From the IMG/VR virus record IMGVR_UViG_3300026094_000002: a stretch of DNA of 64,000 nt; one strand, written 5' to 3'. Source of the DNA: a virus (lineage: Duplodnaviria; Caudoviricetes). A program made the translations under genes and the position numbers. The notes under the pieces were generated by a model. It made no database searches. It worked only from the letters and a program-made list of their open reading frames with translations, and had not been told where the DNA came from. This document shows positions 1 to 63,330 of this stretch, piece after piece. The stretch's first letter is position 1. The number at the start of each line of letters is the position of its first letter.

Positions 1-1
1 A

Positions 2-3378: not shown

Positions 3379-3494
3379 TGTTTAAAAAAATAAAGAAATT
3401 TATCACACGCATTTATAACAAAATCAAATTAGAAATACGGTATAGAAAAAAATTACGCAAATTGCGTAAACGTGACCCATTCATATATAAATGA
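3378..3494 (+). CDS. 38-aa basic peptide MFKKIKKFITRIYNKIKLEIRYRKKLRKLRKRDPFIYK (not in ORF track)
   Basis: Read by hand. The start overlaps the upstream stop (TAATG) and the stop overlaps the carbamoyltransferase start (ATGA), consistent with translational coupling on both sides. Confidence 0.75.
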   Translation: MFKKIKKFITRIYNKIKLEIRYRKKLRKLRKRDPFIYK

Positions 3495-7528: not shown

Positions 7529-8637
7529 GAATTAATGTCCTTTTTTATATTGTTTAGCATAGATGTTAATTCTTTCCATAAGATATTCTTAAAAACTCCG
7601 TTATAAAAATGATTATAATTAAATTTTAATGTTGGAATCATATGTTTATACATTTGATTTAATTCTTTAGGAGTAAGATCGTCTAAATTTTTGGTTAATT
7701 TTGCTATTTTTTCAATTCTCAAAATATCATCTTCTTCGGTATCGTAATCTTCAGACCAGAATTCTGAGAATGTTTTAAATCCATATGATTTCAAATATTC
7801 TAAACTATATGCAGTAGAAACAAGAATAAATGGCATATACATACAAATTGGCTTGAATATTTTCTCTGTAAGATGATTTCTTTTTCCAGAAAAAACAGTT
7901 TCTGTAACAATGTATGCGAGGGATTCAAAAGACTGATCAAATAATCCAAGCGTATAACTTTCCATTGGATGATTTTCTTCACCTGAAAAGTTCCATGGTA
8001 AATTAACAGAGCCTAAAACTTTTTCAATATCTGGATATGTATTTCTATATCTTCTTCCAATTTTTGATGCGAACTCATTTTCATATGGGCAAACTTGTGG
8101 CATACTAATTTTTGCATTGGTAATATTGTTTTTTACCATATTGTAGAACAGTAGTACTCTGTGGTTTCTCTTGCCGCCTATAATCCTATTAGGACTTATA
8201 AAACTTGATTTTATTTTTCTTGACTCTGGGGGTTCAATAGTGAAATCATAGTTAAAACCTCTAAACCATTCTAATGCCGCCCATCCATGAAAAAAATAGT
8301 AATAATCATCCCAACCATATATGTTGCAGACCTCATTAACTTCATCGCTATTTTTTTCACTGTGAATTAATATTTTTTTGTTTGAATTAAAATTATCAGT
8401 TATATCTTTATTTCTTTTTTCAACATCATCAAAAAGCGGTTTATGCACATCTAAAAATATTGGCTCTTGGTCGTGAAGGAATATATAATTATATTCAGTT
8501 ATATCATGACCATAATTCATTAAGTTTTCGGGGTCAGTTGTCCCCGGCGGATCACAAAAAAATAACCGAGTTTTAGGGATATTCTTATCAATATAATTTT
8601 TGAAAATATTAACGTAAATTTCTTCTATTCTTATCAT
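7525..8637 (-). CDS. Putative glycosyltransferase (GT10-like motif), paralog 3
   Basis: IVTET...LTEKIFKPICMYMPFILVS...GFKTF...EDYD. Confidence 0.6.
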   Translation of the reverse strand: MIRIEEIYVNIFKNYIDKNIPKTRLFFCDPPGTTDPENLMNYGHDITEYNYIFLHDQEPIFLDVHKPLFDDVEKRNKDITDNFNSNKKILIHSEKNSDEVNEVCNIYGWDDYYYFFHGWAALEWFRGFNYDFTIEPPESRKIKSSFISPNRIIGGKRNHRVLLFYNMVKNNITNAKISMPQVCPYENEFASKIGRRYRNTYPDIEKVLGSVNLPWNFSGEENHPMESYTLGLFDQSFESLAYIVTETVFSGKRNHLTEKIFKPICMYMPFILVSTAYSLEYLKSYGFKTFSEFWSEDYDTEEDDILRIEKIAKLTKNLDDLTPKELNQMYKHMIPTLKFNYNHFYNGVFKNILWKELTSMLNNIKKDINS

Positions 8638-11053
8638 GTTTGATGTATTTTACTTTGATAAAAAGCCAAACGTGTTTTCTCATGAAATCCACGTGAAAAG
8701 TATAGATGAGGCTAGAGAAAAATCTAAAACCAGATACTTTTGGATTTTGAATTACTTATCAGACTATTCTTGCTTTGATTTTATTTGGGAACCCGTTCCG
8801 TGGGAAAGTGAGTTTATTCACGCTTGGCCAAGCCAGTGGCAAAAAGATGGTCAAACATATCTAGTACCAAAAGAAAAATCTGTTGGCACAAAATACCACA
8901 AAAATATTATCCCTAGAATACTATCAGAAAAAAATTGGGAAATACCAAAAGATTGTATTGATGATAATTTTGATTTTACTTGGCATCCAGACCCAACTGA
9001 ACCACCATACATATATCAATTCGGTACTCAACACCAAAAGACAGGTGGCCCTAGATATGTCGTTCCCAATGCAACAGAAGTAAAATATGAAAGAAGCACA
9101 ATAGTTAAAAAAACTTCCATTGATAATAACTGGGAAATCCCCTCTGATATTGATGTAAATAATTTTGACTTCACATGGCACCCAGACGAAACAGAATCAC
9201 CATACATATATCAATTCGGTACTCAACACCAAAAGACAGGTGGCCCTAGATATGTCATGGAAGGTGCGACTGAAACAAAATTTATACGTGGCATAAAAGC
9301 CAAAAAAACCTCTATAGATGATAATTGGGAAATTCCTACAGGTGTCACATTTGAAGAGTTTGATTATACTTGGCACCCAGACGAAACAGAATCACCATAT
9401 ATCTATCAATTCGGCACTCAACACCAAAAGACAGGTGGTCCTCGGTATAGAATGTCTGGTGCCACAGAAACAAAATTTATACGCGGGATAAAAGCCAAAA
9501 AAACTTCTATTGATGATAACTGGGAAGTATCACCAGACATTGATGTGGAAAACTTTGATTACACTTGGCACCCGGATGAAACGGAATCACCATATATCTA
9601 TCAATTCGGCACTCAGCACCAAAAAACTGGCGGACCTAGATATATCACAAAGGGTTCTACAGAAACAAAATTTGTTCGGAATATATACGCTAATGTTAAA
9701 AGCAGTCCGGCAAAAAAAGTTTTTTTCATTGATCATTATGACGGGAACATTGACAAATCAATAGAATCTGTCAATTCTACAGACCTAGAAATATTAAAGA
9801 CACGGTATTCGTCAAATTATTTGAGTACAATAAGAAGAATAGCAAAGAAAGTTGGCGATGATTCTGAATACATTTGGATTTGTTCTTCGGTTTGTGATTA
9901 TACTGATTTTAATTTTTCTTGGCACCCAGAGCAGTGGCAGAGCAACATGGTCCATGTATTTCCAAGTAATGAGCAAAAATTCGGAGATACTTTTTTTATT
10001 CATGTGCCTTCAATCTTGGATCAATTAGATGTAGAATTATTAGAATGGCATAATATAAATTTTCTATCTGACATCTCAGTACCTAGATGGAATTGTCCAG
10101 AAGTAAAACACGATGATGATAGCCATATTGATGTGATAAAAAATCAAAATTTGCTGGCACCATTAACAATATTCTCTTGCGATAATGTCAATACTGATGA
10201 TATTAAAAATACCCCAACTGTTCCACTATGGGAAGAAAAAACAAAAACAATAGTACCACTATCAGATGGGGGATCTTCAGTTATAGTTCCCAGAGAAAGT
10301 ATTGCTTTTATTAATGATCAATTATATGATTATCCTTATATAGATAAAACTTTTTCTGGGATATGCGATGATAAACCATTAGACATTGTTTTTATATCTA
10401 ATGGTGAAACTAATGCAGAAGAAAACTGGGAACATTTACTCAGTGTTACTGCTGATAAATCAAATAGGGTTGCGAGAGTAGATGGTATAAATGGGCGTGT
10501 AGCGGCTTATCAGGCTGCTCTTGAGGAAAGTAATACCGACTGGGCATTTTGTGTGTTTGCTAAATTAAAAGTCAATCCAGAGTTTGATTGGTCGTGGCAA
10601 CCTGATAGAATGCAACAAAGAAAGCATTATATATTTCATGCAAAAAATCCAGTCAATTTTCTGGAATATGGTCATATGGCAATGATCGCATATAACAAAA
10701 AATTAACACTTCAAAACACAGGGGGTGGATTAGATTTTACACTTGACCAAGAACATGATGTAGTGCCACTACTAAGTGGAACAGCGGAATTCAATAATGA
10801 TCCGTGGATGACATGGAGAACGGCATTTAGAGAGTGTTTAAAGTTGCGTGATAGTTTGCCAAATATTGAAAACGAATATCGCTTAGAAACATGGCTTTCT
10901 GTCGGTGATGGCAATAATGGAGATTGGAGTGTCCGTGGTGCAGAGGATGCAGTGAGATATTACGAATCAGTGAATGGTGACTTTGAAAAACTCAAGTTAA
11001 GTTATGAATGGAAGTGGTTACAAGAGTTTTTTAATCGCGAGTACTCTCAATAA
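8636..11053 (+). CDS. Large protein with four 65-aa tandem repeats and a C-terminal GT-A-like domain
   Basis: Repeats NWEIP...FDFTWHPD.TE.PYIYQFGTQHQKTGGPRY; the C-terminal region DIVFISNGE...RVDGINGRVAAYQAA resembles a GT2-type fold. Confidence 0.7.
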   Translation: MFDVFYFDKKPNVFSHEIHVKSIDEAREKSKTRYFWILNYLSDYSCFDFIWEPVPWESEFIHAWPSQWQKDGQTYLVPKEKSVGTKYHKNIIPRILSEKNWEIPKDCIDDNFDFTWHPDPTEPPYIYQFGTQHQKTGGPRYVVPNATEVKYERSTIVKKTSIDNNWEIPSDIDVNNFDFTWHPDETESPYIYQFGTQHQKTGGPRYVMEGATETKFIRGIKAKKTSIDDNWEIPTGVTFEEFDYTWHPDETESPYIYQFGTQHQKTGGPRYRMSGATETKFIRGIKAKKTSIDDNWEVSPDIDVENFDYTWHPDETESPYIYQFGTQHQKTGGPRYITKGSTETKFVRNIYANVKSSPAKKVFFIDHYDGNIDKSIESVNSTDLEILKTRYSSNYLSTIRRIAKKVGDDSEYIWICSSVCDYTDFNFSWHPEQWQSNMVHVFPSNEQKFGDTFFIHVPSILDQLDVELLEWHNINFLSDISVPRWNCPEVKHDDDSHIDVIKNQNLLAPLTIFSCDNVNTDDIKNTPTVPLWEEKTKTIVPLSDGGSSVIVPRESIAFINDQLYDYPYIDKTFSGICDDKPLDIVFISNGETNAEENWEHLLSVTADKSNRVARVDGINGRVAAYQAALEESNTDWAFCVFAKLKVNPEFDWSWQPDRMQQRKHYIFHAKNPVNFLEYGHMAMIAYNKKLTLQNTGGGLDFTLDQEHDVVPLLSGTAEFNNDPWMTWRTAFRECLKLRDSLPNIENEYRLETWLSVGDGNNGDWSVRGAEDAVRYYESVNGDFEKLKLSYEWKWLQEFFNREYSQ
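8933..9700 (+). repeat. Intragenic tandem repeat, 4 x 195 bp (65 aa)
   Basis: The TGG CAY CCN (WHP) anchor occurs at 8981, 9176, 9371 and 9566, an exact 195-bp period; the core ...TATCAATTCGGYACTCARCACCAAAARACWGGYGG... is near-identical. Confidence 0.95.
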
Positions 11054-12110
11054 CAGATTCACCAATATACTCTACTTCACTGTCTGATAACTCTGGATAG
11101 CAAGGCAAACTTAGCACACTTCTAGATAACATACTAGCAGTGCTAATCATCCCCGGATTTGGATACTTTTTAAATGCAGGTAACTCAAATAGTGGCTTGT
11201 CATAATGTATCTTTGTTTCAATGTCTTTATCAGCGAGTTTTTGTTTGATTTTGTTTCTCTCGCTATGTGATATAACAAACTTATGAAACCCATGATCACT
11301 GATAGAGTTGACAAGAACATTAATACCATTTTTTTCAAATATGCGGTACCAATATGAAAAAATCTCCCGACGACGATCCTGCCATTCATCAATATATTTT
11401 GACTTTACCATGAGTTGAGCACAATCTACCTCACTCATTCTCAAGTTACTGCCTGTTTGATAATTATTTGGTTTGCCATTATTACGATATTGTTTTGCAA
11501 AAAGTGCAAAACTTTCATCATTAGTAACTACTGCCCCACCGTTAGCATAATTGCCAAAATTTTTAGTAGGATCAAAACTTAAGGCTGCAGCAATTCCGCA
11601 TCGTTGAGAATTGTTTGCCAGCCAGTGCTGTGCTGCATCTTCTATCTCAACAGCAGTTTTATGTTTTGCCAATGCATTACGAACATCGCCGCCATACAGT
11701 CCGACTAATACTATTAAATGTGGGTCAATATCACTCTGAATAGAATCTGGTTTTATTATTCCATACTTGTCTACATCTGCAAAACAAATTTTCCAACCAG
11801 AATTAGCAAATGCATTTGCTGTAGCAGAATATGTCAATGACGGTAGTACTACTATTGGTGTTGTAGAATCATCATATTTAAGCATGTTATACATGGCGTA
11901 CTTTGCTATTAATTCTAACGCAACAGTACCGCTTGTGCATGTCACTGCATAACGATTACTATTTTTATTTGCTAACCATGTCTCAAACCGCTCAGTGAAG
12001 GGGCCATCCATAAGAATGCCACTGGAGAGAACTTTATCAGTAGCGTCTAGTATTTCTTCTCGCAGATTTTTATACTGACGTTCTATGTTTGAGAATGGTA
12101 TGAAACTCAT
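11031..12110 (-). CDS. DegT/DnrJ/EryC1/StrS PLP-dependent sugar aminotransferase
   Basis: SGTVAL, IEDAAQ, LSFDPTKNFG (PLP lysine), GGAVVT and LSLPCYPEL motifs. Confidence 0.92.
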   Translation of the reverse strand: MSFIPFSNIERQYKNLREEILDATDKVLSSGILMDGPFTERFETWLANKNSNRYAVTCTSGTVALELIAKYAMYNMLKYDDSTTPIVVLPSLTYSATANAFANSGWKICFADVDKYGIIKPDSIQSDIDPHLIVLVGLYGGDVRNALAKHKTAVEIEDAAQHWLANNSQRCGIAAALSFDPTKNFGNYANGGAVVTNDESFALFAKQYRNNGKPNNYQTGSNLRMSEVDCAQLMVKSKYIDEWQDRRREIFSYWYRIFEKNGINVLVNSISDHGFHKFVISHSERNKIKQKLADKDIETKIHYDKPLFELPAFKKYPNPGMISTASMLSRSVLSLPCYPELSDSEVEYIGESVIESTRD

Positions 12111-12119
12111 TTAAAATAA

Positions 12120-13061
12120 TTATTGATTGATTAAATAGTCATAAGTTTTTTCTAACCCAATTTCTATATCAACTGTTGGATTATAACCAAGTAAAGACTT
12201 GGCTTTGTTAATATCTAACGTTCCGCGACTTGGATAAGAGTTATCTGGGTTGTTCATTTTGATTTCACCACCACCAGCGATAGCAGTGGCAATTTGTGCA
12301 GCATCATATATAGTCCGTGCAGAACCACGGGTCATGTTGAAAGTTTGATTCTCTGATTCTTTCTTTTCTGTTGTTAGTGCAATTCCAGACACTAAATCAC
12401 TTATGTATGTAAAGTCTATAGATTCATCTTTGCCATTTACAGTAAGTGTTTTGTTATCGTTTGCCGCAGACAAAAACTTTGGAACTATCCGGTCGCTAAT
12501 ATCATTTGACCCATATACAGCACTTGGGCGAATTATCGTGTATGGCACTGACATCTTAGATGACCAATCTTTAACTAAATTTTCACCTGCAAGTTTAAGT
12601 ATGCCATATTGACCTTTTGGATTGCACGGAGAATCCTCGGTAACTGAACCAGAAAAATCGCCATACACCATACTAGAACTAACAAATATAAATTTGCCAA
12701 CGTTGCTACATGCTTGTAATAAGTTTATATTACCTTCAATCATGGTTCTTGCAGCAAGTGCTGGGTTTTTGGAAACAGTTTTTTGACGTGGAAAACTGGC
12801 TAGATGTATAACCACATCATAGGAGTTGACATTAAAGATAGATTGGAAGTCGGCATAATCATTTATATCGGCTCGGTAAATAATTACGCTTTTTGGGATT
12901 GTTTTTAGCCTACTAGAAACTAATCGCCCAACTTCTGCAGAGTTGACCGAACCATAATCAGTGACATTGTCAATTATTGATACTTGATGGCCTAGGTGGC
13001 ACAAGTGTTGAACAAGATGGTGGCCTATAAAACCTAGGCCACCAGTTACCATTATTTTCAT
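12120..13061 (-). CDS. NAD-dependent epimerase/dehydratase (extended SDR)
   Basis: TGGLGFIG, SSSMVYG, YGILK (YxxxK) and DFTYISD motifs. Confidence 0.92.
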   Translation of the reverse strand: MKIMVTGGLGFIGHHLVQHLCHLGHQVSIIDNVTDYGSVNSAEVGRLVSSRLKTIPKSVIIYRADINDYADFQSIFNVNSYDVVIHLASFPRQKTVSKNPALAARTMIEGNINLLQACSNVGKFIFVSSSMVYGDFSGSVTEDSPCNPKGQYGILKLAGENLVKDWSSKMSVPYTIIRPSAVYGSNDISDRIVPKFLSAANDNKTLTVNGKDESIDFTYISDLVSGIALTTEKKESENQTFNMTRGSARTIYDAAQIATAIAGGGEIKMNNPDNSYPSRGTLDINKAKSLLGYNPTVDIEIGLEKTYDYLINQ

Positions 13062-18131: not shown

Positions 18132-18458
18132 TTATACACCAAAACTAGAACCACAGCCACAAGTAGTTTCAGCATTCGGATTATCAATGACGAATTGCTC
18201 GCCCATTAATCCTTCAGTATAATCTATTCTTGCACCTTCGAGATATTGCATGCTGAAGAAATCAACAACAACTTTGTATTCTTCGTTAAGATCAAATTCC
18301 CAATCGCCTTCATCTTGGTCTTCTACAAGTGCAAAGCCATACTGGAATCCAGAACACCCACCACCCTCAATAAATGTTCTTAACTTGAGATTAGGGTTGT
18401 CTTCTTCTTTGAGAATTTCAACTATTTTGGAACGAGCATTGTCGGTAATTTCAATCAT
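18132..18458 (-). CDS. erpA: A-type Fe-S cluster carrier (ErpA/IscA/HesB family)
   Basis: GGGCSGFQY and C-terminal CGCGSSF motifs. Confidence 0.93.
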   Translation of the reverse strand: MIEITDNARSKIVEILKEEDNPNLKLRTFIEGGGCSGFQYGFALVEDQDEGDWEFDLNEEYKVVVDFFSMQYLEGARIDYTEGLMGEQFVIDNPNAETTCGCGSSFGV

Positions 18459-18463
18459 AACAA

Positions 18464-18471
18464 TATTTATA
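18464..18471 (-). promoter_or_regulatory. T4-late-like promoter TATAAATA
   Basis: Exact T4 gp55 consensus, 5 nt upstream of the erpA ATG, with no Shine-Dalgarno in between. Confidence 0.65.
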
Positions 18472-18494
18472 AGGATATAGGAACGAAGTGTAAA

Positions 18495-18760
18495 ATCAGC
18501 CCGTTCTGTTTACAGGTGGGCCAGACCCAGAGCGACTAAGCAGCTAGTGCGAAATCCTCAGAATAAAAATCGTCATTTGCGACTATTTTAGTTTGCTTCT
18601 ACGATCGGGTAACCCCAATCCTAACGGCTTCAGCATTGCCGATTCTCCACGATGCTTCGTTCTGCTCCGTCGAAACTGTTTCATCCCCATAGTTGGTGGA
18701 GATGCCCGGTACTGCCCCGGGGTCCGCAACAGCGTCCCATCGCTTCATCAAATTCTTAAT
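18495..18760 (-). ncRNA. ssrA: Circularly permuted (two-piece) tmRNA, alphaproteobacterial type
   Basis: The acceptor piece has T-arm CCCGG-GGCAGTA-CCGGG and ends CATCTCCACCA (3' end 18694). A 5-nt spacer ACTAT follows, then the coding piece starts GGGGATG (18688), giving a 7-bp acceptor stem with G3:U70. The tag ORF 18580-18536 reads ANDDFYSEDFALAA*, preceded by AAAATAGTC. Outer boundaries are approximate. Confidence 0.95.
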
Positions 18761-19953
18761 TAAATATATTTATGTTGTTTATTGCCATCATTATGAAGTA
18801 TTTTGTTTGCAATGTCAATAGCAGTGTATGCACTTAGAGTCCAGCCTAAATGCCCGTGGCCTGTATTATACCATATATTGGAATTCTTCTTGCTCTGCTT
18901 GACAATAGGCATCATGTTCGGTGTCATTGGCCGAAGACCTGCCCACGGAACAACACTTTCTGTATTCATTTGTGGAAATAACTCTTCTGTCCAATCAACC
19001 AATGGCTGGACACGATGTTGGAGAATATCGCGGTTATATCCATTAAATTCTGCTGTACCAGCGGCACGGAAGCGAGACTCGCCCAGTCGGGAACTAACAA
19101 TTTTTGTTTCATCATCAAGCAAACTAGTCCATGGACTATTTCCCGGTTCATTAACAGTAATAGAATATCCTTTTACAGGATAGATTGGCAAGTTATCACC
19201 AATAAGTTTAGCAATGTCACGACTTCCAGTGCCAGCACAAATGACTACTGGTCCTTGCTTTTGGAATAGTTCTAATGAATCCTTGTCAACTGTTTCCTGA
19301 ACAAATTGAACGGCATAATGTCTTTCTAAGCAACGTGCAAGGTTTGTACAAAACTTGTGAATATCACCTGTAAAATCTTCTTCTGTGTAAAATCCACCGA
19401 CAATAGAGCGTCTAGAATTTTGTAGTTCCGGCTCAATAGAAAATACTTCTTCTGAGGTAATTTCATTACGAGCAAGCCCAGCCGACCGATAAATTTTGTT
19501 AGTCAGTCTTGCACTCTGTAAATCTTTCTCATTAGAATAGATGTGCATTATGCCTTGTTTTACACAGTCAAAATCAATTCCCTCACGCTCGGCAATATTT
19601 TTGTAAAGATCGTGTGCTTCAATTGCCATCTCGCAAGTATGGTGTGTATTTTCTTTTCTGTTTGGAATGTGACTTAAAAATTTTGCAAACCAAGAATACT
19701 TGTGAAGTGACGGTGCGGGATTGATTTTTAGCGGTGCATCTTTTCGAAACATCCACTTAGCACCTTTTGCTACATTGTGCCAACTATTCCATACTTCTGA
19801 GTTTGATGCACTTAACTGCCCACCATTTGCATATGATGTTCCCATTCCCGAATATCTTTCTTGATCAACCACAAGAACATCGTAACCTGAACGTGCAAGA
19901 TAATATGCTGTAGTAATACCAGTTATTCCAGCACCGATGACCGTAACTGTCAC
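18760..19953 (-). CDS. dadA: D-amino acid dehydrogenase (FAD-dependent, DAO family)
   Basis: GAGITG, TSYANGGQLS, IYPVKGYS, WAGLRPMTP and NTGHGHLGWT motifs. Confidence 0.88.
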   Translation of the reverse strand: MTVTVIGAGITGITTAYYLARSGYDVLVVDQERYSGMGTSYANGGQLSASNSEVWNSWHNVAKGAKWMFRKDAPLKINPAPSLHKYSWFAKFLSHIPNRKENTHHTCEMAIEAHDLYKNIAEREGIDFDCVKQGIMHIYSNEKDLQSARLTNKIYRSAGLARNEITSEEVFSIEPELQNSRRSIVGGFYTEEDFTGDIHKFCTNLARCLERHYAVQFVQETVDKDSLELFQKQGPVVICAGTGSRDIAKLIGDNLPIYPVKGYSITVNEPGNSPWTSLLDDETKIVSSRLGESRFRAAGTAEFNGYNRDILQHRVQPLVDWTEELFPQMNTESVVPWAGLRPMTPNMMPIVKQSKKNSNIWYNTGHGHLGWTLSAYTAIDIANKILHNDGNKQHKYI

Positions 19954-20581: not shown

Positions 20582-22129
20582 TTAGTATTTTGATTTAGGT
20601 ATTTTAAATAATCTTTCTTTATATTTTCTGGATATATCTTCTCTTTTTGATACAAGGGAATGCCAATCAAAAGTTTTTATTGTCTTGTTAAAGGTGTGTT
20701 CTAGATCAACGCCAGTTATACATGCGTAAAATGCGGATAAACTGCTGATTTTTTTCTCAGCGACATTATTTCCTTTAACGATATAATGGTCAGCTAGATG
20801 GATACATTCAGTTAAGCATGTGTGTTGATTCTCCCATCTATAAGATTTTAAACTTTGATCCCATTCTAATAACGTGTACCCATATTGTGAGTAATTTAAC
20901 TCTATTTTACTTAAAAATTTTTTTTGTAGAGGCCCTATCATTAGTGGAAATATGAGCCAGCTATCCAATCCGCTTTCTCCAGCAACTAACATATCCCCAG
21001 TTTTTTTCATGCTCTCTACTGGTTCTTCTGGGAGTCCAAAGATAAATGTACCATGGAGGGAGACACTGTTTCCATATTTGTTTTTAATATATTTTACGGT
21101 GTCAAACATTTTATCTCTATCACCCCCCTTGCCGATTAACGAAGAAGTTTTTTTGTTTAGTGTTTCGATTCCAAAGTGACAGGCACGGAGTCCGCTATCG
21201 AACAATTTGTCAATGTATTCTTTATGTGCTGTTAATAAATCTAAGCGTATATATGCCCAATATTCAAGTTTAAACGGAAGTTCTTTAGAAATCTGATATA
21301 TTAACTCGATTTTTTCAATGCTGTCGTTAAAAGTATCATCACTAAAGATGTACCTAGTAATGCCAAAATTTTCATAATGGTAAATGAATTCTTTTAATAG
21401 TATATTTTTTAATTTAATGAAATCATTTTTTTTCTTTCCATTTAACGGATATGAACAAAACGCACAATTAAAAATACATCCTCTAGAAATTTCAGTTACT
21501 AATGACTCGTTATCTAATAATAAATCATTTTCATGAAAAAGCATTGGGGTTTCAGAAAAATTATATCCCTCGGCTTTGGCATCATCTATTACTATAGATT
21601 TGTACAAACTCTTCTTGGCGTTTTTTAATGGTTCGTTTTTTGACAAATGATTGGCTAGATTGACAGCAGAGTTGTCTGCGTATCCTATTATAGTGTAGTC
21701 AAAATATTTAATATAAGGCAACACTTGTGCATCAGGTCCACCTAATACTAGTTTACAGTTTTTGTTAAGTGTTTTAATTAAATTAATAATTCTGCTATTA
21801 AATTCTATACCATGTGGCAATAGTGCACCGGGCACTTTTTCGCCAAAACGAATCCCACCGCTCTCCCATTGATTGTCATTATCAATAGTGTTTTGTTGTG
21901 AAATATCTTTATAAAAAAAGGTATTAAATCCAACAAATAATGTATCAGCATCGATAAAGTATTTTAGTGCTTCTTCTATTTCATCAAGTGAAAAAGTATG
22001 TAGAAAATCAATAACTTGTACTTTATAGCCACTATTTCTTAATGCTGCCGCTACTTTATATGGGCCCAATGTTCTAGACAAAAAGACTTCATCAACATTA
22101 TCATTGAGCAATAGAATATTTTTAGTCAT
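20582..22129 (-). CDS. B12-binding-domain radical SAM protein (class B methyltransferase-like)
   Basis: N-terminal cobalamin-binding-like region (LVLGGP), EISRGCIFNCAFC, DDTFN and FGIET motifs; TAAATA lies 5 nt upstream of the ATG. Confidence 0.88.
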   Translation of the reverse strand: MTKNILLLNDNVDEVFLSRTLGPYKVAAALRNSGYKVQVIDFLHTFSLDEIEEALKYFIDADTLFVGFNTFFYKDISQQNTIDNDNQWESGGIRFGEKVPGALLPHGIEFNSRIINLIKTLNKNCKLVLGGPDAQVLPYIKYFDYTIIGYADNSAVNLANHLSKNEPLKNAKKSLYKSIVIDDAKAEGYNFSETPMLFHENDLLLDNESLVTEISRGCIFNCAFCSYPLNGKKKNDFIKLKNILLKEFIYHYENFGITRYIFSDDTFNDSIEKIELIYQISKELPFKLEYWAYIRLDLLTAHKEYIDKLFDSGLRACHFGIETLNKKTSSLIGKGGDRDKMFDTVKYIKNKYGNSVSLHGTFIFGLPEEPVESMKKTGDMLVAGESGLDSWLIFPLMIGPLQKKFLSKIELNYSQYGYTLLEWDQSLKSYRWENQHTCLTECIHLADHYIVKGNNVAEKKISSLSAFYACITGVDLEHTFNKTIKTFDWHSLVSKREDISRKYKERLFKIPKSKY

Positions 22130-22342: not shown

Positions 22343-22897
22343 TTATTTGCGACAGGTATCTGCTAAACCTTTTAATAGTGCAGAAGATGGTATTTGTCCC
22401 GGGTGGTTTTTCTCTCGTTGCCATTTCCCCTGTATGCCATATGCAAGAGCCTCTAACGTCCCTTTACAATATTTGCTATTATAGAATCCATTTACTTTTT
22501 GCATAAAGTGAACTAACTCATGAACAAGTATGTGACGGGTATCCCAATCTCTTACACTAAAATTCGTATCAAAATACATTGTGTTCTTACCAGCATGATA
22601 AAGGGCAGCAATATTACTGTTGTTTATTTTCTGTAAATCTTTTTTGGTTTGGTTTTTTGGATCTGGGTCAATACCATAGAATCGTATTGCCATTTCTTCT
22701 CGTGATATTTTTTTAATATTTGGTAATTCTTCTCCATTGTAGTCTAAAAATGTTTCAGAACTAATCCATTCAACATGCTTTAGTACAATTTCTTGGCGTT
22801 GTTGTGTATCAACTTGATGAATTAAAAGTGAAAATATTATTACTATTATAGTAAGTGAAATGTATTTTAAAACAATGGAAAACGTATTATTATGCAC
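22343..22897 (-). CDS. Membrane-anchored/secreted HExxH protein (DUF6647-like)
   Basis: N-terminal hydrophobic helix, LVHELVHFMQ and C...E..AY..Q..W motifs; GTG start. Confidence 0.65.
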   Translation of the reverse strand: MHNNTFSIVLKYISLTIIVIIFSLLIHQVDTQQRQEIVLKHVEWISSETFLDYNGEELPNIKKISREEMAIRFYGIDPDPKNQTKKDLQKINNSNIAALYHAGKNTMYFDTNFSVRDWDTRHILVHELVHFMQKVNGFYNSKYCKGTLEALAYGIQGKWQREKNHPGQIPSSALLKGLADTCRK

Positions 22898-22962
22898 CGA
22901 TCCGCTCTCATTTTGAGTATTTAGTGCGTATAAAAAAATTGAACTGAATGCGTAAATAAAAT

Positions 22963-23062
22963 GAGGACATCACATGGGAGCGGACATGTGATGTCCTCGG
23001 GAAAACAACTGCAATCAGGAGCGGTAATTGCAGTTGGCGTTGACTACCGGCTCGGTAATCAG
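22963..23062. ncRNA. Putative structured small RNA: three hairpins, two with GGAGCGG loops
   Basis: Perfect 14-bp stem (22963-22976/22985-22998) and 10-bp stem (23006-23015/23027-23036), plus a third imperfect stem at 23041-23061. Plus-strand TAAATA at 22953-22958. Strand not established. Confidence 0.55.
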
Positions 23063-23077
23063 ATGCTCGTTTTTATT

Positions 23078-23290
23078 TTAACTAAAATATTTGTTTAACA
23101 TCTCTAGTTTGTCATCGTAATCGGCAATTTCAGCCAATTCTTTTTCAATCTCTTCTAAGATATCACCAGAACCCTCGCCAGTACCAACTGGATTTTCTAA
23201 CAGAACTTCTACATTAGCACGGTGCTTTTCAATGTGTCCGACAAAGTGGGCTTCAGCAGATTTGAAAATTGTATCTCTGAGATTTTTCAT
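23078..23290 (-). CDS. Hypothetical phage protein
   Basis: 70-aa helical ORF (HIEKHRANVEVLLENPVG); TAAATA upstream. Confidence 0.75.
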   Translation of the reverse strand: MKNLRDTIFKSAEAHFVGHIEKHRANVEVLLENPVGTGEGSGDILEEIEKELAEIADYDDKLEMLNKYFS

Positions 23291-23339
23291 TAATAATAAC
23301 CTATGTTTTCTAAGAGGTATTTAGATAATATAAACCTAA

Positions 23340-24050
23340 TTATAATAATTTTATGAGTGAATTTACTGTTTTGTCTAAATTGCCAAAATTAAAAACGTGT
23401 ATATCAAATTGATTATCCAACTTCTTAACGAATTTGGCTGTATTGAAACCAGAACAAGAAAGATATTTGACTCCAACAACATTAGGAATTATTTCTCGGG
23501 TAGTACGAGCAATACCACAGAGTTTAATGAATTTCAACAATTCTTTTGCAGTACAATTGCTTGGGACACCAACGATTGTTTTTTGATCAAATTGTTTTAA
23601 CAGAGAAAGATTCAAACAAATCTGTGTAATGCCACGGGCAAACTTGGTATATTTGGTTTCGGTTACAGAATCATGCGTTTCGTGTTGAGGATACACTCCA
23701 CATAAAAAATTAAAACCATATTCTTTATCTTTGAGGTCTTTAAGCAAATCAAAGGCATTTCCATAACAGTTTCCATATTTTCTACTGCCCCCAATGATTA
23801 AAACATCTTTAACCCCAAGGTCAACAAATCGATCACAGTTGTCATATAATTCTTTTTTGTTTTTTAGATTGCGAGCGGCAATATGTGGGATAATTTTTAT
23901 TCTTGAATTCTGTCGGCGAAGATTAGAAATAGCGGTTACTGTCTCAGAGAGTCGTGTTCCCGGAAGGTGAGTAACACTTACAGAGTCAACATTTGAGAGG
24001 ACATTTTGGGATAGTTTTTGTTTTGGCGTTTGTTCAACACTTATTTTCAC
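23340..24050 (-). CDS. Short methylenetetrahydrofolate reductase-like (MetF-like) TIM-barrel protein
   Basis: SVTHLPG, IPHIAARNL, DVLIIGG, CGVYP and ITQ motifs align with the MTHFR FAD-binding barrel. Confidence 0.65.
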   Translation of the reverse strand: MKISVEQTPKQKLSQNVLSNVDSVSVTHLPGTRLSETVTAISNLRRQNSRIKIIPHIAARNLKNKKELYDNCDRFVDLGVKDVLIIGGSRKYGNCYGNAFDLLKDLKDKEYGFNFLCGVYPQHETHDSVTETKYTKFARGITQICLNLSLLKQFDQKTIVGVPSNCTAKELLKFIKLCGIARTTREIIPNVVGVKYLSCSGFNTAKFVKKLDNQFDIHVFNFGNLDKTVNSLIKLL

Positions 24051-28017: not shown

Positions 28018-28563
28018 ATGATTGATGATATTAAAAATTTCTTAAACATTGTTGAAGCGGCTGGTGTTCCCGGCGTTAAACAATATGATCGTGATGAAAC
28101 AAAGATCACTGCTCAAATTGACAGCAAACTTGGACCAAAGTTTGACCGACTTGTAGATGATCTGCAAAAAGTTGATAATTTAAAAGCCCAACTAAAACAG
28201 ATGCAAGATACCACAAAAACACAGACACGGCAAGATGTTGCATTTTTATTTGATGTTGAAGATGCAGTATTCACTCGCGTCATTGAAACAAAGAATGTTA
28301 TTTTAGAAATATCTAAAGATCCCAAGCCAACAGAATCACCACAATATAAAAAGATTCTTGAAGCATTAGAAAAACATTTAACACCTGATCTCGTTGAAGT
28401 TCTTGAAAAATTAAAAGAAGAACATAAAACCGTTACTCAAAAAGATCCAGCAGTCAAATATAAATTTAAAGAAGATGCGTCAGATGAATTAGATTTAGAT
28501 CCAGTCAAACAGTGGCTTGACACATACGACCGCAAACTTGATTTAGTTAAACAATATCTTTAA
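28018..28563 (+). CDS. Hypothetical late protein (possible internal head protein)
   Basis: TAAATA 5 nt upstream; N-terminus MIDDIKNFLNIVEAA with an I-x-E site. Confidence 0.65.
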   Translation: MIDDIKNFLNIVEAAGVPGVKQYDRDETKITAQIDSKLGPKFDRLVDDLQKVDNLKAQLKQMQDTTKTQTRQDVAFLFDVEDAVFTRVIETKNVILEISKDPKPTESPQYKKILEALEKHLTPDLVEVLEKLKEEHKTVTQKDPAVKYKFKEDASDELDLDPVKQWLDTYDRKLDLVKQYL

Positions 28564-39351: not shown

Positions 39352-39361
39352 GTGTACTAGC

Positions 39362-40465: not shown

Positions 40466-40507
40466 ACAAAATACTTAGTTTTTTAAAAAATAGAATTTTT
40501 ATTCTTT

Positions 40508-45937: not shown

Positions 45938-46097
45938 AGTATTATTTATGTTATATTTTAAAAAGTTCTTGTGAATTCCTTATCACTTATTAATATAACT
46001 TTAACTTTCCCTAACATTCGACTCGCCAAGCCAAATTCTTTTCTATATGGACTTCGTATATATTTGCAAAATTCATTTTTTCTTTACTTTATATTGC

Positions 46098-57458: not shown

Positions 57459-57504
57459 GTATAATATTTATACTATCACAATATTATGGCTGGCAATGTA
57501 TTAT

Positions 57505-60305: not shown

Positions 60306-61073
60306 TTATTTATCTACTATTATATCTACTGTCTTACGAATTGTGCCGGGGCGAATTAAATTCATCATACTAATTATTGATTTATTGTTGTGGTCTAAAA
60401 ACATTTGATCCTCAATAATTGACGGTCTGGGATAGAATATTCTACTAAAAATCATAACCTGTTGTTGCTGAGTGTTATCTGACAACTTTTTATTATTAAT
60501 CCATTTTTTTAATAATGGACTAGGCTTAAAATCTTCAGGCGGTTGTGTCTCTAAAAATGCTCTTATGTTACTTTCTAAAGTGTAATCAAAAGATTTTGTT
60601 TGCGACAAATAGCTTCTAAATTTAAAATCAGAATTTTTTAATACAATAGAATTAACAGGATGGTCAATGATTCTTTCAGTTAAATTTGAAAGGTGTAGAT
60701 TGTTAATCTTTTTTAACTTATCAACTATTGAAATATCATTAAAATATAATCTTGCTATGAGCCAACCAGCGTGTACAAGGCGTGTATCTGGTTCTTCTGT
60801 AATAAAATCTAATATCTCGTGCAGTGTTTTTGTTTCAGTTACTGCAAAACTATCAAAAATAGTACTAATACCTCCTATAGGACGAATCCCTCCTGTGTAG
60901 GTACTTGTTTCCTCTGCATTTTTAATACATTTATTATTTTTTTCAATAATCCGGTCTATGGTTTCATGACTCCGGTGACGAAGCAATCCAATACCGGCAG
61001 TGCTTAGAGTGACACTGAACCGGTATTGGTTAAAGAAAAGACGATTAGTTGATTTCTGTTGTATCTTCATCAT
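60306..61073 (-). CDS. Hypothetical protein
   Basis: 255-aa ORF overlapping the clpA end. Confidence 0.7.
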   Translation of the reverse strand: MMKIQQKSTNRLFFNQYRFSVTLSTAGIGLLRHRSHETIDRIIEKNNKCIKNAEETSTYTGGIRPIGGISTIFDSFAVTETKTLHEILDFITEEPDTRLVHAGWLIARLYFNDISIVDKLKKINNLHLSNLTERIIDHPVNSIVLKNSDFKFRSYLSQTKSFDYTLESNIRAFLETQPPEDFKPSPLLKKWINNKKLSDNTQQQQVMIFSRIFYPRPSIIEDQMFLDHNNKSIISMMNLIRPGTIRKTVDIIVDK

Positions 61074-63330
61074 CTAACACAACATGACCAGACTCACTAA
61101 TTCTAGGATTGGCAATATTTTCAATGTCAAATTTTACTTCATCATCAACAAGGTCAGCACGAACAATGCAATCAGAAAGATTATCAAATAATATACGGCG
61201 ACCTAGCGGAACTGAAATCATTTCGTCAATTTTTCTAGACAATGGTCGTGCACCCATCTTAGGATCATAGCCATCTTCAGCAAGGCGATCTATTACCGCT
61301 TCTGATAAATTAAACTTAATATTTTTATCTTCAAGTGATGCTTTTAATTCATCAATAAATTTGACAACAATCTTCTTGATTGAAAGTGTATCAAGTTTGG
61401 CAAACTTACAGGTAGCATCAATGCGGTTTCTCAACTCTGGCTTAAAGAATTCTCGCATTGCCTTGTCTTCTTCGCCACTACGCTCTAGACTCTTGCCAAA
61501 GCCAATGTTGTTCTTCTCGTTTTCTGTTGAGCCAAGATTGGATGTCATAATAACAATGCAATTTCTAACATCAACTTGCTTTCCATTTGACCCAGTTATT
61601 TTCCCTTCATCAAGCATCTGTAAGAAAATGTTGGTAACATCAGGGTGTGCTTTTTCAACCTCATCAAAAAGTAATACCGAATAAGGATTTTTGCTTACAT
61701 CAGAAATTAAACGACCACCGCCTAGATTACTATCTTCAAATCCAACATATCCCGGAGGTGCACCAATCAAGCCAGAAACAGTATGTTTTTCTTGGTACTC
61801 ACTCATATCATATTTCATAAGTGGCATATCAAGATTTTCTGACAACAATCGTGCCAACTCTGTCTTGCCGGTTCCCGTTGGACCTAAGAAAACAAAACTT
61901 GCAATTGGACGTGTCGGAGAACCCAATCCAGCAAAATTCACATAAATTCTTTCTAGAACGGTATCAACTGCTTCATCTTGCCCGTATAGTTTTGTTTTAA
62001 TTGTACTTTCAAGGTTTCTAATCTTCTCATTGTGTTTTTCTTGAAGATGATCAACCGGAATTCCTGCCGCCTTGGATAATTGATTTTCAATATCTTGTTG
62101 AGATACTTTATACGCTTTGTTGTCTTTAGCACGTTCTCTTGCACACGCACCATCAATTAAATCAATGCTCTTGTCAGGATTCTTACGATCATGAATATAT
62201 CTTGCACTTAGACGAACTGCAGACTCAATTGCATCAGTTTCTATTTCAACATCATGGAAATATTCTAATCTTGGGCTTAATCCTACTAGTATCTTTTTAG
62301 TAGTCTCGTCACTTGGTTCATCTATTGATACGCGGTGGAACCGACGCATAAGTGCTCTGTCCTTTTCAAAACTCTCATAAAATTCCTCCCACGTTGTAGA
62401 AGCAATAACCTTAAAAGATCCGCGTGTAATAGCTGGCTTAAGCATATTTGCAAAGTCTAGACTACTAGAACTTCCTGCACCTGCTCCTTTCATTGTGTGT
62501 GCCTCGTCAATAAAAAGAATTGCAGTTTTTCTTGCTTCAAGAGCAGAAATAATATTCTTTAACTTTTCTTCAAATTCTCCACGATGCTTACAACCAGCAA
62601 GTAAGCTTCCTATCTCAAGACTCCACACAGTATGGTCTTTAAGGAATCTAGGCACTTCTTCGTCAATTATACGCTGTGCTAGTCCATCAACAATTGCGGT
62701 CTTTCCAACACCAGCATCACCTACCATTAGAACATTACTTTTAAACTTACGAGCCAGAACTTCAACCATTTCTTCAAGTTCTTCACTTCTGCCGATCATT
62801 GGTTCAATTTGGTCATTAGCAGCCATCTCAGTTAAGTTGGTGCAATGTTCAGCAAGGATTTCTTCTGCTTGTTCTTCATTAAGTTTGAAGTCTGCTTTAC
62901 GATAATGTGTCTGCCAAAACTCAACAAATTCTTCTTTGGCAATTCCATATTTTAGTAGAAAGTATTGTGCATGACTGTTTGTTTCAGACATTATTGCTAG
63001 ATAAAGATCACCAGTTGTGACCTTGCGACGCCCAGTAAAAAGAACTTGCGTCAGTGCCCGGTTAAAAACTCTTTCTAACGCATGGGTTTTGACAGGCTCA
63101 ACCGTTTTTTGACTTGTTATTGTTATCCCAATTTGACTATCAACATATGCCTCAACCTCAGCATCCATTGCTGCAGAATCCACGCCAAATTTGTCAATGA
63201 CATTTCTAAATGGTGTGTGTCTCATTAATGCCAGAAGCAAATGTTCAAGCAGCACATACTCATGACTTTTCTCTTTTGCGATTCGGGTAGCCTGTTCAAT
63301 TATCTGTTCTATTTCTTGGTTATTTTGCAT
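61045..63330 (-). CDS. clpA: ATP-dependent Clp protease ATP-binding subunit ClpA
   Basis: N-domain HEY...EHLL, GDAGVGKT / FIDEAH, GPTGTGKT / LFDEVEK, FKPELRNR and GARPL motifs; no ClpB M-domain. Confidence 0.92.
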   Translation of the reverse strand: MQNNQEIEQIIEQATRIAKEKSHEYVLLEHLLLALMRHTPFRNVIDKFGVDSAAMDAEVEAYVDSQIGITITSQKTVEPVKTHALERVFNRALTQVLFTGRRKVTTGDLYLAIMSETNSHAQYFLLKYGIAKEEFVEFWQTHYRKADFKLNEEQAEEILAEHCTNLTEMAANDQIEPMIGRSEELEEMVEVLARKFKSNVLMVGDAGVGKTAIVDGLAQRIIDEEVPRFLKDHTVWSLEIGSLLAGCKHRGEFEEKLKNIISALEARKTAILFIDEAHTMKGAGAGSSSSLDFANMLKPAITRGSFKVIASTTWEEFYESFEKDRALMRRFHRVSIDEPSDETTKKILVGLSPRLEYFHDVEIETDAIESAVRLSARYIHDRKNPDKSIDLIDGACARERAKDNKAYKVSQQDIENQLSKAAGIPVDHLQEKHNEKIRNLESTIKTKLYGQDEAVDTVLERIYVNFAGLGSPTRPIASFVFLGPTGTGKTELARLLSENLDMPLMKYDMSEYQEKHTVSGLIGAPPGYVGFEDSNLGGGRLISDVSKNPYSVLLFDEVEKAHPDVTNIFLQMLDEGKITGSNGKQVDVRNCIVIMTSNLGSTENEKNNIGFGKSLERSGEEDKAMREFFKPELRNRIDATCKFAKLDTLSIKKIVVKFIDELKASLEDKNIKFNLSEAVIDRLAEDGYDPKMGARPLSRKIDEMISVPLGRRILFDNLSDCIVRADLVDDEVKFDIENIANPRISESGHVVLDDEDTTEIN

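What the first reader, a model, noticed from the sequence alone, without database searches (positions are those of the whole stretch)
18495..18772. Phage-encoded circularly permuted two-piece tmRNA with a 5-nt spacer
Seen: the acceptor piece comes before the coding piece, with a GGCAGTA T-loop, a G3:U70 acceptor stem, an encoded CCA, only ACTAT between CCA and G1, the tag ANDDFYSEDFALAA, and a TAAATA motif at 18767-18772 just upstream. Established: permuted tmRNA with a GGCRGUA T-loop is characteristic of Alphaproteobacteria, and LAA ends are ClpXP degrons. Inference: the host is alphaproteobacterial, and the phage supplements or replaces ribosome rescue late in infection, perhaps to counter host defences that cleave tmRNA or mRNA. 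No smpB is visible in this window.
Basis: partly seen in the sequence, partly recalled or inferred. Interest (0 to 1): 0.82.

Follow-up and report, generated by a model that had tools for sequence, protein, structure and literature searches.

The report
Jumbo-phage two-piece tmRNA, mosaic tRNA-like core
This is a real ribosome-rescue RNA gene (two-piece tmRNA) carried by a roughly 350-kb T4-related jumbo phage; such phage genes are already known, and the new details are that its tRNA-like core has been exchanged relative to its closest relative and that the phage clade also carries ClpX, ClpP and a ClpA-like protein but no SmpB.

Summary

It is phage-borne. The contig is a 194.5-kb viral record with a baseplate gene. 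Four 100%-complete relatives of 352-358 kb have a T4-type capsid protein and terminase.

Phage two-piece tmRNAs are already published (Buchholz 2022), and this scan has about 300 earlier notes on them, so the kind is known. The 5-nt spacer is not special: spacers of 2-10 nt are common in Alphaproteobacteria and in other viral tmRNAs.

What I add:
- Every genome of this clade that I searched has a two-piece tmRNA, ClpP and a ClpA-like protein; ClpX was confirmed only on the window's contig. None has SmpB.
- The T-arm/acceptor core is alpha-type here and in four independent assemblies, but standard-type in the closest relative, while the rest of the gene is about 91% identical. The core has therefore been exchanged.
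- The gene has both a sigma70-like promoter and the phage's late-type ATAAATA box.

The alphaproteobacterial-host inference rests only on that core and is weak.

The parts
18790..18818 (-). Sigma70-like promoter TTGACA-17-CATAAT inside the 3' end of the dadA-like gene; candidate early or host-RNAP promoter for ssrA
   Evidence: 11 of 12 consensus matches. Near-consensus TTGACA-17-TATAAT/TATAAA boxes precede ssrA in relatives L111, L128, L136, L143, L187, L222, L284 and L285, and TTTACA-17-TATAAT does so in L441 and L445.
18767..18774 (-). cATAAATA box: the phage's late-type, -10-only promoter element, about 6 nt before the predicted 5' end of the precursor
   Evidence: Sequence. ATAAATA is about 5-fold enriched in intergenic DNA of the contig and lies 5-7 nt before many ATG codons without a -35 box, including a baseplate wedge gene. 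TATAAATA sits 5 nt before the first tmRNA helix in L441, L445, L111, L128, L136 and L143.
18694..18765 (-). Acceptor piece: 3' strands of helix P2, GGAC, T-arm (CCCGG-GGCAGTA-CCGGG), acceptor 3' strand CATCTCC, discriminator A, encoded CCA (18696-18694)
   Evidence: T-stem and acceptor stem pair in 14 of 14 clade sequences, with compensatory changes. The 5' end is inferred from the promoter position.
18689..18693 (-). 5-nt spacer ACTAT between CCA and G1, removed at maturation (inferred); the 'empty-site' state of the spacer
   Evidence: Clade spacers range from 4 to 255 nt. L122's 69-nt spacer is a stem-closed insert followed by CTGAT.
18494..18688 (-). Coding piece: 5' acceptor strand GGGGATG (G3:U70), P2 5' strands, PK1-region hairpin, extra hairpin 18607-18624, tag ORF, 3' hairpin
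   Evidence: 91.4% identical to the closest relative over 18676-18491.
18536..18580 (-). Tag reading frame: GCA resume codon to TAG stop, encoding ANDDFYSEDFALAA
   Evidence: Relatives encode ANDNFYSEDFALAA (L122) and ANDDFYSENLALAA (L442/L443).
18491..18516 (-). Terminator-like hairpin followed by CTGATTTT
   Evidence: Conserved in L122, L442 and L443.
18655..18743 (-). Tract that differs from the closest relative L122. The part exchanged among subclade members is the T-arm, both acceptor strands and the spacer, bounded by the conserved GGAC and GTTTCGAC.
   Evidence: 28 of 83 mismatches here against 11 of 180 elsewhere, Fisher p = 2e-8. The same alpha-type core occurs in independent contigs L441/L444, L442, L443 and L445.
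18760..19953 (-). Upstream neighbour: D-amino-acid dehydrogenase-like FAD oxidoreductase (auxiliary metabolic gene)
   Evidence: NF009074 528 bits against a cut-off of 494. Homologues are widespread in related jumbo-phage contigs.
18132..18458 (-). Downstream neighbour: ErpA-type Fe-S cluster insertion protein, with TATAAATA (18471-18464) 5 nt before its ATG
   Evidence: NF010147 146.5 bits against a cut-off of 117; motif.
61045..63330 (-). ClpA-like two-ring AAA+ unfoldase (Clp_N, two Walker A motifs, GYVG pore loop, IGF ClpP-docking tripeptide); possible downstream handler of tagged proteins (inferred link)
   Evidence: TIGR02639 817.9 bits, top hit but below the cut-off of 993; domains; motifs; present in all four complete relatives searched.

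Best explanation
This is a genuine ssrA gene of the two-piece (circularly permuted) type, maintained under selection and carried by an uncultured T4-related jumbo phage. Inferred mechanism: the gene is transcribed from a sigma70-like promoter, the phage's late-type ATAAATA promoter, or both, as one precursor of about 270 nt that ends at a hairpin plus U-tract. Host RNase P cuts before G1 (18688). That single cut also frees the acceptor piece with a 5-nt trailer, which host 3' exonucleases trim back to the encoded CCA. The two pieces stay together through the acceptor stem and helix P2. Host AlaRS charges the RNA through G3:U70. Host SmpB (the phage has none) and EF-Tu deliver it to stalled ribosomes. 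Translation resumes at GCA and appends ANDDFYSEDFALAA. The ALAA end then directs the product to ClpXP or ClpAP, whose subunits the phage itself also encodes. The likely benefit is to keep ribosomes free and recycle amino acids while host mRNA decays during infection. Shown here: gene identity, phage location, conservation and covariation in the clade, absence of SmpB, presence of Clp genes, and the mosaic core. Inferred: processing, charging, tagging, timing and benefit.
For: Identity: ARAGORN and Rfam, 99.3 and 74.4 bits. Phage location: the contig is a viral record of 194,522 bp with no 16S rRNA, six tRNAs and a baseplate wedge gene at 957 bits. Its DNA polymerase is nearest to the jumbo phages PA5oct, Phosso and Atu_ph07. 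Complete relatives have gp23 and TerL, and one has direct terminal repeats. Conservation: 20 of 160 related loci hold a permuted tmRNA within 6 kb, and all four complete relatives searched have one. T-stem and acceptor stem pair in 14 of 14 sequences with compensatory changes, and G3:U70 is invariant. The tag is conserved with 1-2 substitutions. Partners: no SmpB in the own contig or in five near-complete relatives. ClpP occurs in 5 of 5 genomes and the ClpA-like protein in 5 of 5. ClpX scores 507 bits against a cut-off of 359, and ClpP 305 against 249. Docking and pore motifs are intact. Transcription signals. Short spacers are normal in bacteria with working two-piece tmRNAs. Precedent: Buchholz 2022 (PMC9004378) and Al-Shayeb 2020 (PMC7162821).
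Against: The host is unknown, so compatibility with its SmpB, RNase P and AlaRS cannot be checked. The alpha model score (74 bits) is far below that of a bona fide alphaproteobacterial tmRNA (253 bits), so the RNA is atypical. The coding piece has only a short 3' region after the tag, so pseudoknots 2-4 appear reduced. The MFE fold pairs the acceptor piece's 5' region with the tag's 3' end instead of forming the canonical P2. The link between the tmRNA and the phage Clp genes is co-occurrence only: Atu_ph07 has Clp genes but no tmRNA (PMC11242549).
Confidence: 0.72

Rival explanations
1. The RNA acts mainly as a competitor or reprogrammer of host trans-translation rather than as extra rescue capacity. 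Either it titrates host SmpB, or it replaces the host tag with the phage's own acidic tag, so that rescued products are routed preferentially to the phage-encoded ClpXP/ClpAP or escape a host adaptor.
For: The phage lacks SmpB and must draw on the host pool. A TLD-only tmRNA exists in mycobacteriophage DS6A, and such molecules inhibit tmRNA (PMC4131195). The phage encodes its own ClpX, ClpP and ClpA-like proteins. The tag is conserved within the subclade but differs from those of the nearest bacterial tmRNAs.
Against: The full mRNA-like domain, resume codon and canonical ALAA end are conserved, as expected for ordinary tagging. Nothing shows that the phage Clp proteins discriminate between tags. 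ClpX lacks an RKH motif, but the significance of that is unknown.
Confidence: 0.15
2. The gene is a passenger: a recently captured or recombining ssrA copy, or an attachment-site mimic, with little or no function for the phage.
For: ssrA genes are frequent integration sites, and fragments are picked up by imprecise excision (PMC9004378). The tRNA-like core shows recombination. The region upstream of ssrA is variable: L122 has a 1.3-kb insert there, and several contigs break there.
Against: The gene is complete and has its own promoter and terminator. It is present in all four complete relatives searched and in many partial ones, with compensatory substitutions in its stems. Its coding piece is more conserved (91%) than the flanking protein genes (81-84%).
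Confidence: 0.07
3. The stretch is host chromosome or an assembly chimera, not phage DNA.
For: The immediate neighbours (DadA-like, ErpA) look like cellular metabolic genes. The exact junction sequence was not found in other assemblies.
Against: Both flanks are collinear with related phage contigs. The same outer-motif plus alpha-core arrangement occurs in four independent assemblies. The contig has a baseplate gene, phage DNA polymerase and tRNAs but no rRNA. Complete relatives with capsid and terminase carry dadA, ssrA and the AAA gene too.
Confidence: 0.02

Closest known systems
Phage-encoded two-piece tmRNAs of marine T4-like myophages (Methylophilales phage Melnitz, Pelagibacter phages Mosig and HTVC008M-like; Buchholz et al. 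2022, PMC9004378)
   Same: Permuted ssrA on a lytic-type myovirus. The tRNA-like domain is of alpha type. There is no phage SmpB. A sigma70-type promoter lies upstream. A CsgG-like curli gene is also present on the contig.
   Different: The phage here is a roughly 350-kb jumbo phage of the PA5oct/Atu_ph07 DNA-polymerase neighbourhood. No glutamine riboswitch reached the Rfam threshold in the window. The spacer is minimal. ClpX, ClpP and a ClpA-like gene are co-encoded. The tRNA-like core is mosaic relative to the nearest relative.
Alphaproteobacterial two-piece tmRNA (Rfam RF01849; Caulobacter model, Keiler et al. 2000, as cited in PMC9004378)
   Same: Gene order, GGCRGUA T-loop, G3:U70, encoded CCA, ANDN/D...ALAA-type tag, and short spacers of 2-10 nt.
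   Different: Only the roughly 57-nt core matches Alphaproteobacteria by BLAST. The whole gene scores 74 bits against 253 bits for a real alphaproteobacterial tmRNA. The outer P2 and coding piece belong to a phage lineage.
Betaproteobacterial-type two-piece tmRNA (Rfam RF01850), as carried by most phages of this clade
   Same: The same phage clade and a related genomic neighbourhood (dadA or AAA-ATPase gene within 6 kb). Permuted order. YTGAT just before G1. The outer motif GATGAAGC or TATGAAGC.
   Different: Those have the standard T-loop TTCGAYT or TGCRAAT and spacers of 27-255 nt, often stem-closed inserts. The window has GGCAGTA and a 5-nt spacer.
tmRNAs of huge and jumbo phages (Al-Shayeb et al. 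2020, PMC7162821; Bacillus phage G, PMC12484599; Sinorhizobium phage AP-J-162, PMC11242549)
   Same: A large phage genome with tRNAs, a tmRNA and chaperone/Clp genes.
   Different: Al-Shayeb et al. list SmpB as well as tmRNAs among huge-phage genes; this clade has no SmpB. Those papers do not analyse the tmRNA architecture or link it to the Clp genes.

Membership tests
Two-piece (circularly permuted) tmRNA | Acceptor (3') part of the tRNA-like domain encoded upstream of the 5' acceptor strand and the mRNA-like domain | tested here: met
   ARAGORN tmRNA*. RF04321 full-length match at 99.3 bits against a gathering score of 47.
Two-piece (circularly permuted) tmRNA | 7-bp acceptor stem with G3:U70, discriminator A and 3' CCA (alanine identity) | tested here: met
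   GGGGATG pairs with CATCTCC, followed by A and CCA. G3:U70 is invariant in 14 of 14 clade sequences.
Two-piece (circularly permuted) tmRNA | T-arm with a 5-bp stem and 7-nt loop | tested here: met
   CCCGG-GGCAGTA-CCGGG. The stem pairs in 14 of 14 sequences, with compensatory changes at 4 of 5 pairs.
Two-piece (circularly permuted) tmRNA | Helix P2 joining the two pieces, and a PK1 region before the resume codon | tested here: inconclusive
   The covariance-model alignment forms the P2 helices with three non-canonical pairs. P2 pairs are 74-88% canonical across the clade with compensatory changes. The MFE fold prefers an alternative pairing. Only the PK1 hairpin was tested, not the pseudoknot.
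Two-piece (circularly permuted) tmRNA | Tag reading frame starting at an Ala resume codon and ending in a hydrophobic ALAA-type degron plus a stop | tested here: met
   GCA...GCT GCT TAG encodes ANDDFYSEDFALAA.
Two-piece (circularly permuted) tmRNA | Precursor processed into two RNAs that work in trans-translation with SmpB | not testable with these tools
SmpB is absent from the phage, so the host protein is required.
Alphaproteobacterial tmRNA (RF01849) | Score at or above the Rfam gathering threshold | tested here: met
   74.4 bits against 50. A genuine alphaproteobacterial tmRNA scores 252.7, and the coding piece alone scores 19.5 bits.
Alphaproteobacterial tmRNA (RF01849) | GGCRGUA T-loop | tested here: met
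   GGCAGTA at 18716-18710. The loop is not exclusive to Alphaproteobacteria: it also occurs in phage tmRNAs that score best as beta-type (L111, L143) and in a MAG labelled Sinobacteraceae.
Alphaproteobacterial tmRNA (RF01849) | Whole-gene descent from an alphaproteobacterial ssrA | tested here: not met
   In 401 alphaproteobacterial genomes, all 183 matches cover only query positions about 33-109, i.e. the tRNA-like core. The outer P2 and coding piece are shared with phage relatives whose core is of standard type.
Melnitz-type phage tmRNA | Glutamine (glnA) riboswitch in the 3' domain (common, not defining, per PMC9004378) | tested here: not met
   Only the two tmRNA families reached the gathering score in the 64-kb window.

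The most novel reading that the evidence does not exclude
In a permuted ssrA gene the whole tRNA-like core (T-arm, both acceptor strands and the spacer) is one contiguous stretch of about 45 nt, bounded by the universally conserved GGAC and GUUUCGAC. Phages that lack SmpB may therefore exchange this core as a cassette, with host or co-infecting-phage ssrA genes, to stay compatible with the SmpB, RNase P and AlaRS of a new host. If so, the core type would record host class independently of the rest of the gene. Together with the phage's own ClpX, ClpP and ClpA-like genes, this would make a portable tag-and-degrade module.
Probability: 0.25. Interest if true: 0.62.

Novelty: new member of a known kind. 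Interest (0 to 1): 0.38.

Why it matters
Phage tmRNAs are known, but their role is unproven. This clade offers a clean setting for testing it. The genomes are complete, and all those searched carry ssrA, ClpP and a ClpA-like gene (ClpX was confirmed on the window's contig) but never SmpB, so function must pass through the host SmpB. Natural variants with the same mRNA-like body but two different tRNA-like cores (window, L442 and L443 against L122) amount to a ready-made swap experiment. It can ask which part of tmRNA sets host compatibility, and whether tmRNA type can be used to predict phage hosts. The result also warns against calling a host from a T-loop signature alone.

Tried and rejected
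- blastn of the tmRNA against 50,697 phage records found no match.
- Exact-junction scans of viral and metagenome contigs found nothing. A relaxed signature then found five loci from four independent assemblies.
- BLAST of the tmRNA against 300 genomes of the class of a Sinobacteraceae-labelled MAG matched only that genome itself, so the coding piece's origin stays unresolved.
- Calling the body 'beta-type' was rejected. The coding piece alone scores weakly, and as alpha (19.5 bits). L122 as a whole scores 77.8 bits as beta (below the gathering score) and 65.3 as alpha.
- My first reading, that the alpha core was gained on the window's own terminal branch, was revised. Contigs L441-L445 show that the core is shared by a sub-lineage, so L122 is more likely the one that changed.
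- My interim view that ssrA is only sigma70-driven was revised after the contig-wide ATAAATA analysis.
- TATAAATA is not found within 120 nt upstream of the capsid genes of relatives.
- No single bacterial donor was found: best cassette identity is 80%, and best core identity is 91% over 57 nt.
- The count of structure pairs was not called, to avoid sending a long dot-bracket string. The same counts were computed in Python.
- Complex prediction and structure prediction were not used, because no claim here depends on them.
Full report
**1. Observation**

ARAGORN finds exactly one RNA gene in the window: a permuted tmRNA (tmRNA*) at 18445-18786 on the minus strand, with the tag ANDDFYSEDFALAA. 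Rfam gives two significant matches. RF04321 tmRNA_permuted scores 99.3 bits against a gathering score of 47 and covers the full model. RF01849 alpha_tmRNA scores 74.4 bits against 50.

- GGAC at 18725-18722
- T-arm CCCGG-GGCAGTA-CCGGG
- acceptor 3' strand CATCTCC, discriminator A, and CCA at 18696-18694
- spacer ACTAT at 18693-18689
- G1 at 18688, with GGGGATG giving G3:U70
- resume codon GCA at 18580 and stop TAG at 18538-18536
- cATAAATA at 18774-18767

The precursor's folding energy is only modestly better than shuffles (z = -2.2). The evidence is therefore the model scores plus covariation, not thermodynamics.

**2. Phage or host?**

The two neighbours look cellular: a D-amino-acid dehydrogenase-like gene and ErpA. 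The context, however, is viral.
- The window lies in a 194,522-bp virus record that CheckV estimates to be 56% complete. It has no 16S rRNA and no SmpB, and it has six tRNAs.
- The window holds a phage DNA polymerase closest to the jumbo phages PA5oct, Phosso and Atu_ph07. It also holds thyX and an AAA-ATPase/DUF2201 pair typical of large phages.
- The contig itself encodes a baseplate wedge subunit (phrog_10646, 957 bits).
- Homologues of the two flanking genes occur on hundreds of viral contigs. Four of these are records of 352-358 kb rated 100% complete, one with direct terminal repeats. A fifth, of 340 kb, is rated 98% complete.
- The four 100%-complete records encode a T4-type major capsid protein (269-337 bits) and a large terminase.

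This is a T4-related jumbo phage.

**3. Is it known?**

Yes, in kind.
- Buchholz et al. 2022 (PMC9004378) describe the two-piece tmRNA of phage Melnitz. They count 53 unique two-piece tmRNAs among isolate phages, 50 of them aquatic.
- Hudson et al. 2014 list phage ssrA genes (PMC4131195).
- Al-Shayeb et al. 2020 report tmRNAs and SmpB in huge phages (PMC7162821).
- The Sinorhizobium jumbo phage AP-J-162 has a tmRNA and six Clp ORFs (PMC11242549).
- This scan already holds about 300 notes on phage two-piece tmRNAs in at least 265 genomes.

**4. The 5-nt spacer**

The spacer is not unusual.
- Among 120 viral contigs with the alpha-type T-arm signature, spacers run from 4 to 140 nt and about ten are 4-9 nt. 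One (L024) has the identical ACTAT.
Of these, 98 have a pairing-verified spacer of 2-10 nt and 16 have exactly 5. They span Pelagibacteraceae, SAR116, Rickettsiales, Holosporales, Xanthobacteraceae and others.
- Within the phage clade, the window's spacer is at the short extreme; others are 4 and 27-255 nt.
- The closest relative's 69-nt spacer is a stem-closed insert followed by CTGAT. Without the insert it would also be 5 nt. The short spacer is therefore the empty-site state, and long spacers are insertions. Some of those carry small ORFs (L128; compare earlier notes).

**5. Conservation and partners in the clade**

- Twenty of 160 related loci hold a permuted tmRNA within 6 kb of the dadA or AAA homologue.
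- All four complete relatives searched have a tmRNA. None of the five near-complete relatives has SmpB.
- In a 14-sequence alignment, the T-stem and acceptor stem pair in every sequence, with double-sided compensatory changes at 4 of 5 and 3 of 7 pairs. G1:C72, G2:C71 and G3:U70 are invariant. P2 helices are 74-88% paired. One caveat: the sequences were found by tools that favour pairing.
- All five genomes searched (the own contig plus the four complete relatives) also encode a full-length ClpP and a ClpA-like two-ring unfoldase of 776-889 bits, below the curated cut-off of 993.
- The own contig has an equivalog-level ClpX (507 bits against a cut-off of 359) and a ClpP (305 against 249). Comparable ORFs of about 400-420 aa occur in three relatives, but I did not classify them.
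- The motifs needed for function are present: zinc-finger cysteines, a GYVG pore loop and an IGL docking tripeptide in ClpX; GYVG and IGF in the ClpA-like protein; and the catalytic Ser and His motifs of ClpP.
- The link between tagging and these proteases is an inference from co-occurrence. Atu_ph07 has Clp genes without a tmRNA.

**6. A mosaic gene**

Against the closest relative (contig of L122/L201; AAA ATPase 96% amino-acid identity), nucleotide identity varies sharply by region.

| Region | Identity to L122 |
|---|---|
| dadA | 81.6% |
| tmRNA coding piece (18676-18491) | 91.4% |
| erpA | 83.6% |
| AAA gene | 81% |
| outer 5' end of the acceptor piece | nearly identical |

The tract holding the inner P2, T-arm, acceptor strands and spacer is different. 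It has 28 mismatches in 83 aligned positions, against 11 in 180 for the rest of the gene (Fisher p = 2e-8). L122 has T-loop TTCGACT, acceptor strand GGGGGCG and a 69-nt spacer.

Most clade tmRNAs score as beta-type (RF01850, 87-154 bits, standard T-loop). L122 as a whole scores 77.8 bits as beta and 65.3 as alpha.

The mosaic is not an assembly artefact. Five loci from four independent assemblies (L441/L444, L442, L443, L445) combine the clade-specific outer motif with an alpha-type core and a 4-nt spacer, CTAT. L442 and L443 are 88-89% identical to the window across the whole gene.

Comparing L442/L443 with L122 narrows the exchanged tract to the T-arm, both acceptor strands and the spacer. 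It is bounded by the conserved GGAC and GTTTCGAC.

Direction of the exchange:
- On the AAA tree, the window and L201 are sisters, and they sit inside a group whose linked tmRNAs all have standard T-loops.
- L442, at 93% AAA identity, has the alpha core.
- The simplest history is therefore a gain of the alpha core at the base of the subclade, followed by a later replacement in the L122 lineage. That makes at least two exchanges. The order is an inference.

In a permuted gene this core is contiguous, so one short recombination tract can swap the entire tRNA-like domain.

**7. Host**

- BLAST of the tmRNA against 401 evenly sampled alphaproteobacterial genomes gave 183 matches. All are confined to the tRNA-like core. 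The best is 91% over 57 nt and runs straight across a 5-nt spacer (ATTAT) in a genome locus with 37% GC.
- That bacterium's own tmRNA scores 252.7 bits on the alpha model, against 74.4 for the window. The window's coding piece alone scores 19.5 bits.
- The GGCRGUA loop also occurs in phage tmRNAs that score best as beta-type (L111, L143) and in a MAG labelled Sinobacteraceae.

The alphaproteobacterial-host inference is therefore possible, and I put it near 50%. It rests on about 57 nt that demonstrably move between genes.

**8. Expression signals**

- A sigma70-like promoter (TTGACA-17-CATAAT, 11 of 12 matches) lies at 18818-18790. A hairpin plus U-tract lies at 18516-18491.
- Near-consensus sigma70 promoters precede ssrA in many relatives.
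- Separately, ATAAATA is about 5-fold enriched in the contig's intergenic DNA. It lies 5-7 nt before many start codons, with no -35 box and no room for a ribosome-binding site. These include a baseplate gene and erpA just downstream of ssrA.
- That pattern fits a T4-late-type promoter producing leaderless mRNAs. Earlier first-reader notes on this genome say the same. I verified the pattern, and for one structural gene.
It would start the precursor a few nucleotides before helix P2.

Dual early and late transcription is likely.

**9. Verdict**

This is a real, conserved, phage-borne two-piece tmRNA, and so a new member of a known kind. The headline feature, the 5-nt spacer, is ordinary.

The points worth keeping are:
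- the SmpB-less clade that also carries ClpP and a ClpA-like protein (with ClpX confirmed on the window's contig)
- the exchangeable tRNA-like core
- the caution this gives for host prediction from tmRNA type

Noticed in passing
Whole contig G000; in the window, for example 18464-18471 (before erpA), about 57464-57470 (before ORF 55836-57458), about 45943-45949 (before ORF 45116-45937), and upstream of ORF 28018-28563 (+): ATAAATA boxes lie 5-7 nt before ATG codons with no -35 box and no Shine-Dalgarno sequence. 32 of 41 sites are intergenic, and 20 ORFs of at least 120 aa have TAAATA-N5-7-ATG. This fits T4-late-type promoters that give leaderless mRNAs. One such gene is a baseplate wedge subunit.
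   Followed up: partly
G000:C1 about 5020-6225 (L296:1327-2532), 21537-22121 (L289:1462-2046), 22673-23509 (L289:2598-3434); window 61045-63330 and 63404-63943: The phage encodes ClpX, ClpP, a CsgG-like curli secretion protein (189 bits, as in pelagimyophages and Melnitz), a ClpA-like unfoldase and a DnaJ C-terminal-domain protein. Together these form a sizeable proteostasis gene set.
   Followed up: partly
L128 (IMGVR_UViG_3300020419_001595), tmRNA spacer; L122:8562-8625: Long tmRNA spacers in relatives are stem-closed inserts. L128's 156-nt spacer holds a small ORF flanked by an inverted repeat. L122's is a 64-nt hairpin element. The window shows the empty site.
   Followed up: partly
L122:7189-8490, compared with window 18760-18766: The closest relative has about 1.3 kb of small ORFs inserted between dadA and ssrA. 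Four of the five sub-lineage loci (L441/L444, L443, L445) start within about 650 nt upstream of ssrA, and in L442 ssrA lies about 140 nt from the contig end. This suggests a hypervariable site just upstream of the gene.
   Followed up: no
L430/L351 (MAG labelled Sinobacteraceae, 61% GC): This bacterial two-piece tmRNA combines the outer motif ATTGCTGTATGAAGC, typical of the phage clade's beta-type genes, with a GGCAGTA T-loop and a 5-nt spacer. It scores only 70 bits on the alpha model. Mixed-type tmRNAs therefore also exist in a bacterial assembly, or in a prophage within it.
   Followed up: partly
Window 38365-42685: The DNA polymerase matches relatives in two pieces by tblastn. Earlier notes describe a split intein with a radical SAM gene in the gap. 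I did not examine this.
   Followed up: no
Window 1-13061, 20582-22129, 39362-40465, 43907-45106, 51108-53051, 58128-59303: The window has an unusually high density of radical SAM and B12-binding radical SAM genes, next to sugar-modifying enzymes. Earlier reports cover this.
   Followed up: no
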